From: Longimicrobiales bacterium
GTDB taxonomy: Bacteria > Gemmatimonadota > Gemmatimonadetes > Longimicrobiales > Gaopeijiaceae
Direction: 5' to 3'
Assembly (NCBI GenBank): GCA_965198065.1
Contig: CBDAON010000004.1
Coordinates: 1,280,001-1,344,000 of the forward strand
DNA length: 64,000 nucleotides
Shown here: positions 1 to 44,973 of the stretch, one piece after another
Layout of the letters: the number at the start of each line of letters is the position of its first letter
Numbering within the stretch: position 1 is the stretch's first letter
Position numbers and translations under genes: made by a program
The notes under the pieces: generated by a model
The model's input: the letters and a program-made list of their open reading frames with translations, nothing else
Databases searched by the model: none
What the model was told of the DNA's origin: nothing

Positions 1-801
1 TGAGATCGTCCGATCGACCTGGTCGGCTTCGACGACCGCGTGCGCCGCGACCCATGCTTCCCTGTCCAGCACATCCACGATTGTCGGGCCCGTGATGCCG
101 GGTAACACCTTGCGAACCTCATCCAGCCGATCTCGCGGCACGTTGGCCATCAGGTAGCGGTGGCGCTTCGCGCGGAGCACCGACTCAAGGGCGGTCACGA
201 GCCGCTCTCCGCTGCGCTGGGCGCCGCCGCCATTCCAGGCCGCGCGATTCGCGATGAGGCGGGCGGACGAATCGAGAACGGTCCCGACCTCCTTGAGCCC
301 GTTCACGCGCAGGGTCGAGCCCGTCGAGGCCAGGTCCACGATCACGTCGGCCACCCCCAGGTGAGGCGCGATCTCGGCCGCGCCCGATACAGGTACGAGC
401 TGGATCCCGATCCCGAGCGACTCGAAGTGCCGGCGGGCCAGGTTGGGGAAGGAGGTGGCCACGCGGCTTCCCTCTTCCAGCTTTGCCGGATCGTCCACGG
501 GCGACTCCTCCCGGACGGCGATCACGAGGCGACACTTCCCGAATCCCAGGTCGAGGAGCTCGAAGACCTCGTCCCGTCCGGACTCCTCTACGAGGTCCCG
601 GCCGGTGATCCCGAACTCGGCCGCTCCATCCGCGACGAACTCGGGAACGTCCTGCGCGCGGACGAAGATGGCCTGAAACTCCGAGCCGAGTCGGGCCAGG
701 AGGGATCGGTCGGCCCTGAACTCGGGCTTGAGCCCGGCTTCGTCGAACAGCTCGAGCGCGCTGTTCGAGAGGCGGCCCTTGTTCGGTATCGCGATTCTCA
801 T
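1..801 (-). CDS. hisG: ATP phosphoribosyltransferase (3' end runs off the window start)
   Basis: Manual minus-strand translation from ATG 801 gives MRIAIPNKGRLSNSALELFDEAGLK...VRAQDVPEFVADGAAEFGITGRDLVEES, a typical HisG N-terminus. GGAG RBS at 807-810. Missing from the ORF track because the stop lies outside the window. Confidence 0.95.
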   Translation of the reverse strand, partial: MRIAIPNKGRLSNSALELFDEAGLKPEFRADRSLLARLGSEFQAIFVRAQDVPEFVADGAAEFGITGRDLVEESGRDEVFELLDLGFGKCRLVIAVREESPVDDPAKLEEGSRVATSFPNLARRHFESLGIGIQLVPVSGAAEIAPHLGVADVIVDLASTGSTLRVNGLKEVGTVLDSSARLIANRAAWNGGGAQRSGERLVTALESVLRAKRHRYLMANVPRDRLDEVRKVLPGITGPTIVDVLDREAWVAAHAVVEADQVDRTIS

Positions 802-823
802 CCGTGCTCCACCGTCCGCGTGT

Positions 824-858
824 AAAAAAAAGCGGCCCGTCCGGTTGGGACGGGCCGC
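824..858 (-). terminator. Attenuator terminator hairpin upstream of hisG
   Basis: Minus strand GCGGCCCGTCC-CAACC-GGACGGGCCGC-TTTTTTTT: perfect 11-bp stem plus U8, lying between the leader peptide and hisG. Confidence 0.92.
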
Positions 859-879
859 GGGGTTCGGTCGCGCTCGGTT

Positions 880-963
880 TCAGGGGCGCACGCCGACCTC
901 CACCCGTCCCGTCCGGGACCGGCGATGATGGTCGTGATAGTGGTGCGCCACGTACCGGTGCAT
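880..963 (-). CDS. hisL: His operon leader peptide (27 aa, 6 His)
   Basis: MHRYVAHHYHDHHRRSRTGRVEVGVRP*, directly upstream of the terminator and hisG. Confidence 0.88.
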   Translation of the reverse strand: MHRYVAHHYHDHHRRSRTGRVEVGVRP

Positions 964-970
964 GGCGAGG

Positions 971-999
971 AAGCTACCGGCGCGGGGAGGCGCGGTCAA
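971..999 (-). promoter_or_regulatory. Sigma70-type promoter of the his leader (probably leaderless)
   Basis: TTGACC-N17-TAGCTT on the minus strand, 7 nt before the leader ATG; no SD sequence. Confidence 0.65.
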
Positions 1000-1376
1000 A
1001 CGGCGAGGCGCGACCCCGTGTAGCGCGAACTCCGATGGCGACGCCCCGGAAACGAGGCCGGCCGGGCGGCGAAGCCAACCAACGGTGGTGCGGGACCCGT
1101 CCGTCCCGGCCCTTGGCTGCCCCCGGGCGCCGGCTCTACGTTTCATCCCGCGTTCCGACCGCCCTGTCGGTCGGCCGACGTAAGCGTAAGTGCCCACGCC
1201 ACTGGCCTTGCCGGATGAGCGTCGAGTACCGAGACGAGCGATGCGCTGCCGGGCTACGGCGAGGAGGAGTGACGAACGATCAACTGCACATCCGCCACAC
1301 GCCCAACGGCGTGTGGAACATGACGTGGGTGAGCGCGGGCCACCACACCTGTGCGAAGCATCCGTTAGTGCACTGA

Positions 1377-3722
1377 ATGGGCGCTGAATCTCCCACTGCG
1401 GGGCGCGACTTCGTCCGGCAGATCATCGACAGGGACCTGGAGACCGGGGCGACCGAGGGCAGGGTAATCACCCGCTTCCCTCCGGAGCCAAACGGCTTCC
1501 TCCATATCGGTCACGCTAAGTCGCTCGTCCTGAACTTCGGGCTGGCCCAGGATTACGCGGGGGCCCGCTGCCATCTCCGCTTCGACGACACGAACCCCGC
1601 CACGGAGGACCTCCGGTACGTCCGGGCGATCGAGGAGGACGTCCGTTGGCTGGGATACGAGTGGAGCGAGCACCTGTACTTTGCCTCGGACTACTTCGAG
1701 GAGATGTACGGTTTTGCCGAGGAGCTGATCCAGAAGGGGCTCGCCTATGTGGACTCTCAGAGCGAGGAGGCGATCCGGGAGCAGCGGGGCACCGTGACCG
1801 AGCCCGGGCGGGCGAGCCCGCATCGGGAGCGCGCCGTGGAAGAAAGTCTCCGGCTGTTTCGGGAGATGAGGGAGGGAGAGCACGGCGACGGGGAGCACGT
1901 CCTTCGGGCGAAGATCGACATGGGATCGGCCAACATGCTCATGCGCGACCCCGTTCTCTATCGGATTCGCCACGCGGATCACTATCGGACCGGGGGGAGT
2001 TGGTGCATCTATCCCCTCTACGACTATGCCCATCCGCTCGAGGACGCCCTCGAGGGTATCACGCACTCGCTCTGCACGCTCGAGTTCGCCAACAACCGGG
2101 AGCTTTACGACTGGGTGGTCGAGAACGTGAGCGTCCCGCACCGGCCGCGTCAGTATGAGTTTGCGCGCCTGAGTCTCGACTACACGGTCATGAGCAAGCG
2201 CCGCTTTCTGCGGCTGGTCGAGGAGGGCGACGTCGCGGGGTGGGACGACCCACGAATGCCGACGCTGGCGGGCCTCCGGAGGCGCGGCGTCACTCCGGAG
2301 GCGATCCGGGGATTCTGCGAGATGGTCGGAGTCGGGCGCTCGGACTCGCGGGTGGACATCGCGAAGCTCGAGTACGCGATCCGGGACGACCTGAACCGTA
2401 GGGCTCCGCGTGTCCTCGCCGTGCTTCGCCCCCTTAAGGTCACGGTGATCGGGTGGCCCAAGGCCAGGGTGGACGCCTGTGACGCTCCGTATTTCCCTCA
2501 CGATGTTCCAGGGGAGGGCAGCCGGCCCCTCCCGTTCAGCGGCGAGATCTACATCGATCGGGACGACTTCGCCGAGAACCCGCCCCCGGGGTTCCGGAGG
2601 CTCGTGCCCGGGGGAGAGGTGCGGCTCCGGTACGCGTACGTCATCCGCTGCGAGGAGGTGGTGAAGAACGAGGCGGGCAAGGTGGTCGAGCTCCGGTGCA
2701 CCTACGATCCCGAAACGTGGGGACGGAACCCGCCCGACGGCCGATCCGTGAAGGGGACCATCCAATGGGTATCCGCGGCCCACGCAGTGCCGTGCGATGT
2801 CCACCTCTACGATCGCCTCTTTACCGTGCCCGATCCCGAGGCCGAGGCGATCGAGAGGGGAGGCGACTCGACGTTTCGGGACTTCCTGAACCCTGCGTCC
2901 CTCGAGGTCGTCGAGGGCGCGCTGGTGGAGCCGTCGATCGCGGGGGATCCCGGGGATACGCGCTACCAGTTCGAGCGGGTCGGTTACTTCTGGCGGGATC
3001 CTGTGGACGGCCGCGGTGACCGACCCGTGTTCAACCGGATCGTAACGCTCCGGGACACGTGGGCTAGAGTGAAGGCCGGCGGCGTTAAGCGCGGTCCGCG
3101 TGCGCGCCCCGAGGCTCCGGCGGAGAGGCGGTCCGACGGGGACGGCGCTCGGCGCGCGCCCGTGGCGCGGGAACGGGCGGCCGAGCTTCAGGCACGGTTT
3201 GGCCTGGACCCTGCCGATGCGGAGATCCTGGCCAGAGACGCGTCCACGAGTGCCTTCTTCCTGGCCGCCGTGGACGCCTCCTCGGACGCGGGTGCCGAGG
3301 ACAACTACCGGTCGGCGGCCCTCGTTGCGAACTGGATGATCAACGTCCTTCCGTCGGTAGCCGGTGGGCGAGAGCTCGCGGAGCTTCCCATGCGACCCCC
3401 CGAGTTCGCTGCGCTCGTCTCGCTGGTGGAGGAGGGGGTGGTCTCCAGACGGGCGGGGGCAGCGGTTCTAGAAGCCATGGCGCGCGACGGCGGGAACCCG
3501 CGGGAGATCGTCGAGCGGCTGAACCTCCGACAGGTGAGCGACGCCGAGTCCCTGATCCCCATCGTGAAAGAGGTGGTCGGGGGCTACCCCGACAAAGTGG
3601 AGGAATACCGTGCCGGAAAGGTGGAGCTCGTGGGGTTCTTCATGGGCCAGGTCATGCGGCGCTCGGGCGGCCGTGCGGACCCGGGCGTGGTGAGGCGGCT
3701 CCTGGACGAAGCGTTGCGGTAG
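1377..3722 (+). CDS. glnS: Glutamine--tRNA ligase with C-terminal GatB/YqeY domain
   Basis: RFPPEPNGFLHIGH (HIGH) and VMSKR (KMSKS-like) motifs, YQFERVGYF; C-terminal GKVELVGFFMGQVMRRSGGRADP is YqeY/GatB-like. Confidence 0.95.
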   Translation: MGAESPTAGRDFVRQIIDRDLETGATEGRVITRFPPEPNGFLHIGHAKSLVLNFGLAQDYAGARCHLRFDDTNPATEDLRYVRAIEEDVRWLGYEWSEHLYFASDYFEEMYGFAEELIQKGLAYVDSQSEEAIREQRGTVTEPGRASPHRERAVEESLRLFREMREGEHGDGEHVLRAKIDMGSANMLMRDPVLYRIRHADHYRTGGSWCIYPLYDYAHPLEDALEGITHSLCTLEFANNRELYDWVVENVSVPHRPRQYEFARLSLDYTVMSKRRFLRLVEEGDVAGWDDPRMPTLAGLRRRGVTPEAIRGFCEMVGVGRSDSRVDIAKLEYAIRDDLNRRAPRVLAVLRPLKVTVIGWPKARVDACDAPYFPHDVPGEGSRPLPFSGEIYIDRDDFAENPPPGFRRLVPGGEVRLRYAYVIRCEEVVKNEAGKVVELRCTYDPETWGRNPPDGRSVKGTIQWVSAAHAVPCDVHLYDRLFTVPDPEAEAIERGGDSTFRDFLNPASLEVVEGALVEPSIAGDPGDTRYQFERVGYFWRDPVDGRGDRPVFNRIVTLRDTWARVKAGGVKRGPRARPEAPAERRSDGDGARRAPVARERAAELQARFGLDPADAEILARDASTSAFFLAAVDASSDAGAEDNYRSAALVANWMINVLPSVAGGRELAELPMRPPEFAALVSLVEEGVVSRRAGAAVLEAMARDGGNPREIVERLNLRQVSDAESLIPIVKEVVGGYPDKVEEYRAGKVELVGFFMGQVMRRSGGRADPGVVRRLLDEALR

Positions 3723-44899: not shown

Positions 44900-44973
<74 letters not shown>

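What the first reader, a model, noticed from the sequence alone, without database searches (positions are those of the whole stretch)
824..999. Complete ribosome-dependent histidine attenuator with a probably leaderless His-rich leader peptide
Seen: a promoter (TTGACC-N17-TAGCTT), ATG 7 nt later, a 27-aa peptide with six His (HHYHDHH cluster), then a perfect terminator with U8 before hisG. The leader 3' half contains GGGACGGG, complementary to CCCGTCCC in the terminator 5' arm, so an antiterminator can form. Known: this is classical his attenuation as in enterobacteria. Inferred: the host appears to be a distant lineage where, to my knowledge, this is not well documented. Standard gene callers would miss the leader.
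Basis: partly seen in the sequence, partly recalled or inferred. Interest (0 to 1): 0.7.

Follow-up and report, generated by a model that had tools for sequence, protein, structure and literature searches.

The report
Leaderless histidine attenuator before hisG
A 27-codon mini-gene with six histidine codons and a stop-signal hairpin sit in front of this bacterium's histidine-synthesis operon; together they likely form the textbook stalled-ribosome switch, here as an uncatalogued, widely conserved RNA family that is probably translated from the first bases of its transcript and appears to be reused, with other sensor codons, before other amino-acid operons.

Summary
Observation confirmed exactly (minus strand): TTGACC-N17-TAGCTT, ATG 7 nt later, 27-codon ORF with six His, an 11-bp hairpin plus U8, then a full hisGDCHABF(IE) operon. 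The closest HisG relatives are labelled Gemmatimonadota (Longimicrobiales). The element is conserved: 82 of 89 distinct relative loci carry it, including Gemmatimonadales, Myxococcaceae, Acidobacteriota and Eisenbacteria records. Terminator and antiterminator both show compensatory changes (weaker for the antiterminator). Folding with a ribosome held at His codons weakens the terminator in 78 of 82 leaders. The leader start sits 5-12 nt behind a -10 box in 72 of 82 and has an SD-like motif in 5, so a leaderless transcript is likely but unmeasured. It does not match Rfam His_leader or any NCBIfam family. The scan already reported this His element on five other genomes. Added here: the same genome and its relatives carry same-architecture leaders with aromatic, Cys or Thr codons before aroF, cysH and thrA, suggesting one reusable scaffold. 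Verdict: classical mechanism, uncatalogued variant; no functional data.

The parts
994..999 (-). -35 box TTGACC (predicted promoter)
   Evidence: Sequence. TTGAC in 65 of the 72 loci where a promoter-start match was parsed.
971..976 (-). -10 box TAGCTT (predicted); 7 nt before the leader ATG, so the transcript would be leaderless or nearly so
   Evidence: spacing 5-12 nt in 72 of 82 leaders, 5-9 nt in 66.
880..963 (-). Leader ORF (hisL-like), 27 aa, 6 His
   Evidence: Relatives 21-36 aa with 3-9 His; 22% His versus 2.3% in this genome's predicted genes.
925..945 (-). Sensor codons HHYHDHH
   Evidence: Last His lies 7-11 nt before the GGG of the antiterminator strand in 62 of 82.
894..934 (-). 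Predicted protector / pause hairpin (1:2): His codons pair with the antiterminator 5' strand
   Evidence: fold. In 79 of 82 leaders the GGG box is paired upstream in the RNA ending at the stop codon. Covariation of this helix was not counted.
847..910 (-). Predicted antiterminator (2:3): GGGACGGG 910-903 with CCCGTCCC 854-847, extended by 898-888 pairing with 873-866; the leader stop codon (882-880) lies in its loop
   Evidence: folds (-38 to -40 kcal/mol); family counts.
832..858 (-). Intrinsic terminator hairpin (3:4), 11 bp, 5-nt loop
824..831 (-). U8 tract
807..810 (-). SD-like GGAG of hisG, outside the terminator
1..801 (-). hisG (long form; continues beyond the window), first gene of hisG-D-C-H-A-B-F-(IE)
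   Evidence: NCBIfam. Downstream ORFs printed; their names are read from recalled motifs, not from an HMM scan.

Best explanation
This is a conserved His-rich mini-gene with competing RNA hairpins in front of the his operon, and it likely works as a ribosome-dependent transcription attenuator on a probably leaderless transcript. Shown: the parts, their order, their conservation and compensatory base changes. Inferred: RNA polymerase starts at or within a few bases of the AUG at 963 and a ribosome loads there without an SD. With histidine, the ribosome runs to UGA 882-880, unwinding the whole 5' strand of the antiterminator (the stop codon is in its loop), so the 858-832 hairpin forms and transcription ends at U8 (a transcript of about 140 nt). 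When His-tRNA is short, the ribosome stalls on 945-925, keeps the 1:2 hairpin open and leaves 910-888 free; this strand captures the terminator's 5' arm before the 3' arm is made, and the operon is transcribed. With no ribosome, the 1:2 hairpin would sequester that strand and termination would be the default. The switch must be kinetic, because the terminator still wins at equilibrium.
For: Conservation: of 105 long-form hisG loci examined, 9 had too little upstream DNA and 6 were duplicates; 83 of the remaining 90 (this one included) carry a His-run leader. Terminator: 87.2% of cells paired, 83 double-change cells versus 28.8 shuffled, 0 of 500. Antiterminator: 79.2% paired, 25 double-change cells versus 12.8, 0 of 500; slid controls 34-46%. 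Geometry: GGG box 7-11 nt after the last His in 62 of 82, matching a ribosome footprint (recalled value). Folding: terminator gain median -6.8 kcal/mol with a His-stalled ribosome versus -18.0 at the stop codon and -16.2 naked; weaker on stalling in 78 of 82; this locus -9.3 / -20.4 / -16.3. Specificity: 28 of the 29 best non-self model hits in a 151-genome phylum sample lie directly before hisG with a His leader; some of these overlap the training set. Leaderless: SD-like motif before 5 of 82 leader starts versus 35 of 82 hisG starts; genome-wide TAnnnT ends 5-10 nt before 76 of 1856 predicted operon-first starts versus 32 at a control distance. Precedent for leaderless attenuator peptides: C. 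glutamicum ilvL (PMC11857589, passages) and mycobacterial poly-Cys sORFs (10.1101/834739, abstract).
Against: No TSS, 3'-end, ribosome or histidine-response data were obtained. The antiterminator core (GGG:CCC) is nearly invariant and so uninformative; two of five covariation measures were not beyond shuffles (34 and 38 of 500); kin are not independent. In the shuffle test this locus's own antiterminator duplex was not exceptional (-22.3 versus -21.4; 18 of 40 shuffles as good, with the region mis-delimited from His2), though 79 of 82 leaders beat their shuffle mean. In a swap test a foreign strand paired as well as the own strand in a median 28% of cases. The terminator remains favoured at equilibrium in the stalled state. 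Leader starts were partly chosen by promoter match, which is somewhat circular. Seven loci lack the leader.
Confidence: 0.9

Rival explanations
1. Same attenuator, but the leader is translated from a longer, leadered transcript (upstream promoter, or the in-frame TTG inside the -35 box giving 39 aa).
For: 414 nt of intergenic DNA lie upstream (divergent glnS starts at 1377); an in-frame TTG exists here and in a few relatives; the generic promoter scanner found nothing; no TSS measured.
Against: TTGAC-N16-18-nAnnnT sits 5-12 nt before the start in 72 of 82; the TTG frame is not conserved; SD-like motifs are depleted (5 of 82).
Confidence: 0.15
2. The ORF encodes a small His-rich (metal-binding) peptide with its own constitutive terminator, unrelated to his control.
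For: His-rich small proteins exist (recalled); the residues after the cluster (TGR..V) are partly conserved.
Against: Only 22 nt separate U8 from the hisG ATG, leaving no room for a separate promoter; the ORF is tied to hisG, including a distant hisG type at 33% identity; the N-terminal half is unconserved and two leaders change frame in the 3' half (L013, L015); the conserved residues coincide with the pairing strand; the same layout carries aromatic codons before aroF.
Confidence: 0.03
3. Control is by a protein or tRNA/metabolite-sensing RNA (T-box, riboswitch, HutP-like antiterminator), or at the level of hisG translation rather than transcription.
For: T-boxes and the HisR repressor control his genes in Firmicutes (PMC9413887, passages); mycobacterial leaderless poly-Cys sORFs act by RBS sequestration.
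Against: No Rfam match at gathering score in the region, none at E<=10 for a T-box or riboswitch, no T-box genome-wide. A U-rich tract follows the hairpin and the hisG SD lies outside it; U-tract-to-hisG distance varies from 16 to 169 nt. In-frame His codons with start and stop are conserved.
Confidence: 0.04

Closest known systems
Enterobacterial his operon leader (hisL attenuator; Rfam RF00514 His_leader)
   Same: His-rich leader ORF, alternative hairpins, intrinsic terminator, directly before hisG; mechanism as described in PMC9413887 (passages).
   Different: No match to RF00514 even at E<=10 locally or E<=0.001 genome-wide, while the E. coli control rings. Leader longer (21-36 aa), His cluster mid-ORF, stop codon inside the antiterminator loop, start directly behind the -10 box. 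The E. coli leader is shorter and SD-led (recalled).
Predicted Firmicutes His attenuators (B. cereus group, Peptostreptococcaceae, Erysipelotrichales)
   Same: Non-RF00514 His leader-peptide attenuators predicted by comparative genomics (PMC9413887, passages).
   Different: Other phylum; that paper's main text has no mention of gemmatimonads or myxococci. Sequence similarity was not tested.
Corynebacterium glutamicum ilvBNC attenuator (ilvL)
   Same: Leader peptide starting 1 nt from +1, no RBS; three-hairpin protector/antiterminator/terminator model (PMC11857589, passages).
   Different: Senses branched-chain amino acids; Actinobacteria; sequence relation not tested.
Mycobacterial polycysteine leaderless sORFs ('Cys ribulon')
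   Same: Leaderless sensor sORFs controlling operons by ribosome stalling; several loci per genome (10.1101/834739, abstract).
   Different: Act by freeing a ribosome-binding site, not by an intrinsic terminator; sense Cys only.

Membership tests
Ribosome-mediated amino-acid transcription attenuator (class) | Short leader ORF enriched in codons of the pathway's product | tested here: met
   6 His of 27; 83 of 90 loci; 22% versus 2.3% His
Ribosome-mediated amino-acid transcription attenuator (class) | Intrinsic terminator between leader and first gene | tested here: met
Ribosome-mediated amino-acid transcription attenuator (class) | Mutually exclusive antiterminator overlapping the terminator 5' arm | tested here: met
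   covariation moderate, core invariant
Ribosome-mediated amino-acid transcription attenuator (class) | Protector/pause hairpin (1:2) involving the sensor codons | tested here: inconclusive
   Predicted by folding in 79 of 82; covariation not counted, pausing not testable
Ribosome-mediated amino-acid transcription attenuator (class) | Located before the cognate biosynthetic operon | tested here: met
   hisG by NCBIfam; operon ORFs
Ribosome-mediated amino-acid transcription attenuator (class) | Read-through depends on histidine and on leader translation | not testable with these tools
   Needs reporter assay
Rfam RF00514 His_leader | Covariance-model score at or above 49 bits | tested here: not met
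   No hit
NCBIfam leader-peptide families | HMM match of the peptide | tested here: not met
   0 families at E<=10; short peptides are hard to detect; Pfam was not scanned with the peptide
Leaderless mRNA | Transcription start within about 3 nt of the start codon | not testable with these tools
   No raw RNA reads offered; contigs cannot show ends; no his entries in the searched TSS supplements
Leaderless mRNA | -10 box directly before the start codon, no SD | tested here: met
   72 of 82 with 5-12 nt spacing; SD-like in 5 of 82
T-box riboswitch (RF00230) | Covariance-model match | tested here: not met

The most novel reading that the evidence does not exclude
Gemmatimonadota run amino-acid biosynthesis with one modular family of leaderless attenuators: a single promoter-AUG-sensor-antiterminator-terminator cassette, duplicated and re-programmed by swapping sensor codons (His before two distant hisG types; Phe/Tyr/Trp before aroF, pheA and an aromatic amino-acid hydroxylase; Cys before cysH; Thr before thrA), with the His version shared with Myxococcaceae, Acidobacteriota and Eisenbacteria. 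It would show how new attenuators arise, and could be tested in Myxococcus or Gemmatimonas.
Probability: 0.4. Interest if true: 0.62.

Novelty: new variant of a known kind. Interest (0 to 1): 0.42.

Why it matters
The mechanism is textbook, so the surprise is limited. The value is in three things. It extends His attenuation to phyla for which my searches found no report, as an RNA family absent from Rfam and a peptide absent from NCBIfam. It joins leaderless initiation to an intrinsic-terminator attenuator, which asks how a ribosome loads on a nascent 5' AUG in time to decide termination about 130 nt later. And the same layout recurs with other sensor codons in the same genomes, a natural series for studying how attenuators are born. 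Myxococcaceae carry the His version, so a genetically tractable host is available.

Tried and rejected
Rfam: whole window at gathering score gave only a tRNA; region 700-1100 at E<=10 gave nine sub-threshold matches, including Thr_leader at 15.4 of 55 bits, none His_leader. NCBIfam: nothing for the peptide. RNA evidence: one run search with a Myxococcales homologue (L154) returned 24 runs, all contigs, no raw reads; four were laid and cannot show starts or ends, so nothing is concluded. The M. xanthus Cappable-seq paper PMC8844925 (passages, and a search of its 4 supplements) has no his-gene entries; its full TSS table is in a repository I could not reach. PMC11980068 and PMC10783764 (passages) gave nothing on this element. 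My first ribosome-stall simulation mis-placed the last His for this locus and its 'fraction sequestered' measure was confounded; it was replaced. Distances were likewise replaced. L083 was mis-parsed and left out of the 82-row analyses; its leader was confirmed. Five short-form hisG loci (L026-L030) were excluded and show no His leader. No attenuator-like leader was found before trpE or ilvB in this genome, nor an Arg-rich one before an argJ-like gene. The own-genome model search found only this locus as a strong hit (107 bits; next 24.8). 16 of 40 weak phylum hits could not be assigned to an amino-acid gene. No tree was built, so no direction of transfer is claimed.

Full report
Observation. 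On the minus strand the window reads TTGACC (999-994), 17 nt, TAGCTT (976-971), 7 nt, ATG (963), a 27-codon ORF ending at 880 with six His, then an 11-bp hairpin (858-832), U8 (831-824), GGAG (810-807) and hisG at 801. The genome continues with ORFs that read as hisD, C, H, A, B, F and IE (names from recalled motifs). Only 2 of 13,978 ATG sORFs in the genome have 5 His in 8 codons, and only this one has a U-tract behind it. The leader folds better than all 200 shuffles.

Host. The best HisG relatives carry titles of Gemmatimonadota, many Longimicrobiales (80% to about 60% identity); the same HisG type occurs in records labelled Gemmatimonadales, Myxococcaceae, Acidobacteriota and Eisenbacteria. 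A few records titled Gammaproteobacteria fall among them; I take those as submitter labels.

Conservation. I examined 105 long-form hisG loci. Nine had under 250 nt upstream and six were duplicates. Of the 90 left, 83 (this one included) have a His-run leader; seven do not, six of them sharing one upstream gene. In the 82 analysed, leaders are 21-36 aa with 3-9 His, start with ATG or GTG, and are followed by a hairpin and U-rich tract. A covariance model from these hit 63 of 151 genomes of the phylum at E<=0.001; 28 of the 29 best non-self hits are His leaders directly before hisG, some overlapping the training set. In the order around a Myxococcus record it hit 18 of 61 genomes; 13 of 23 fetched hits are His leaders before hisG. 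These are samples, with strict filters, and kin are not independent.

Structure. Three boxes stand out in the alignment: A (GACGGG, inside the ORF), B (GGCCCGTC, terminator 5' arm) and C (GACGGGCC, 3' arm); A and C compete for B. The terminator covaries strongly (83 double-change cells versus 28.8). The antiterminator is paired in 79.2% of cells, with 25 double-change cells versus 12.8, but its core is invariant and two of five measures are not beyond shuffles. Before box B exists, box A pairs back with the His codons (934-894). Masking the RNA under a ribosome changes the terminator's advantage from a median -18.0 kcal/mol (ribosome at stop) or -16.2 (no ribosome) to -6.8 (stalled at His), weaker in 78 of 82. 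It stays negative, so read-through must rely on the antiterminator forming first (inferred). Against: this locus's own duplex was not exceptional in a shuffle test with a mis-set boundary, and the swap test was only modestly specific.

Leaderless start. A -35/-10 pair lies 5-12 nt before the start in 72 of 82 leaders, with TTGAC in 65 of them. SD-like motifs precede 5 of 82 leader starts and 35 of 82 hisG starts. Genome-wide, TAnnnT peaks 6 nt before predicted starts (76 versus 32 control, of 1856), so a minority class of such starts exists; a second peak near 36 nt and a clear SD signal show that most genes are leadered. No TSS data could be obtained.

Beyond the window. A scan of the genome found same-layout leaders before a DAHP synthase (aromatic cluster YFAYFGFW), before cysH and a sulfite reductase (Cys cluster) and before thrA (Thr-rich). 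In relatives, 22 of 29 aroF loci and 6 of 9 cysH loci have a cognate leader plus terminator, own locus included; among 27 aspartokinase loci, five have a Thr/Ile/Met-rich leader plus terminator by my parse and most distant paralogues have none. The His-built model also picks up such leaders at low score: of 40 weak hits, 9 precede hisG (mostly a distant type), 4 aroF, 3 an aromatic amino-acid hydroxylase, 2 prephenate dehydratase, 2 Thr-pathway genes, 1 a citramalate-synthase-like gene, 3 have a leader before an unnamed gene, and 16 are unassigned. CCCG stands in the terminator 5' arm of 73 of 82 His, 17 of 22 aromatic and 5 of 6 Cys leaders, against 20 of 137 background terminators of this genome. 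This suggests a shared scaffold, but convergence in GC-rich DNA is not excluded.

Comparison with what is known. It works like the enterobacterial hisL attenuator but is not a member of RF00514, and the peptide matches no NCBIfam family. PMC9413887 (passages) lists His attenuators for gamma-proteobacteria and three Firmicutes groups, with no mention of gemmatimonads or myxococci; PMC4833913 (passages and supplement search) lists the same groups. Leaderless attenuator peptides are known in Corynebacterium (PMC11857589, passages) and mycobacteria (10.1101/834739, abstract). Nine library searches (listings only, apart from papers named) showed no report of this element; the library lacks most subscription papers, and two surveys I recall (Vitreschak 2004; Lopatovskaya 2010, which I recall covering delta-proteobacteria) were not seen. 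bioRxiv supplements were closed. The scan's own index holds five earlier reports of this His element on other genomes, seen after my reading was formed; none for the aroF/cysH/thrA combination or for this genome.

Verdict. Real and conserved; ribosome-dependent His attenuator about 0.9; leaderless about 0.8; new variant of a known kind; interest 0.42.

Noticed in passing
L150 (G000:C4:2404051-2403840, minus; outside the window): Promoter-adjacent 48-aa ORF with a Tyr/Phe/Trp cluster and a U9 terminator before a DAHP synthase; conserved in 22 of 29 relatives' loci. The DAHP synthase frame ends at 252 aa here against about 338 in the family model, so it may be broken or mis-assembled.
   Followed up: partly
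L151 (G000:C4:1122989-1122855, minus): Promoter-adjacent 27-aa Cys/Met-rich ORF and terminator before cysH and a sulfite reductase; poly-Cys leaders with terminators in 6 of 9 loci. A terminator-based counterpart of the mycobacterial poly-Cys leaders.
   Followed up: partly
L152 (G000:C4:2472857-2472691, minus): Thr-rich 33-aa ORF and terminator before thrA; similar leaders before the closest orthologues (L257, L258, L277).
   Followed up: partly
L153 (G000:C4 about 2359470-2359400, minus): Citramalate synthase is preceded by a terminator and a T-box-like motif (GGTGGTACCGCG, resemblance recalled), yet RF00230 does not match; the same bases read Val-Val-Val in one frame. Unexplained.
   Followed up: partly
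L148:1470-1650; L217, L223, L254: Tyr-rich leaders with the same terminator boxes before a biopterin-dependent aromatic amino-acid hydroxylase (PF00351), not a usual attenuator target to my recall.
   Followed up: partly
L221, L250: Promoter-adjacent 24-26 aa leaders with terminator before a gene that Pfam did not name at E<=1e-12; sensor residue unclear (Cys/Met/Lys).
   Followed up: no
L149, L222, L227, L233, L240: His-rich promoter-adjacent leaders also precede a distant hisG type (33% identity for L149), with a variant terminator sequence.
   Followed up: partly
window 925-945 and relatives: Leaders use CAT more than CAC (274 versus 215), whereas this genome's genes use CAT for 22% of His; it may slow decoding or serve pairing in the 1:2 hairpin.
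   Followed up: no
window 1000-1376: About 375 nt between the his promoter and the divergent glnS-YqeY fusion (1377-3722) hold several inverted repeats (around 1093-1112 and 1158-1177); not analysed.
   Followed up: no
L018, L069, L070, L073, L074, L077; L020: Lineages with long-form hisG but no leader; in six, hisG directly follows a small ORF, suggesting loss of the attenuator by rearrangement.
   Followed up: no
window 44900-44973 (+): A tRNA gene, the only Rfam match at gathering score in the window.
   Followed up: no
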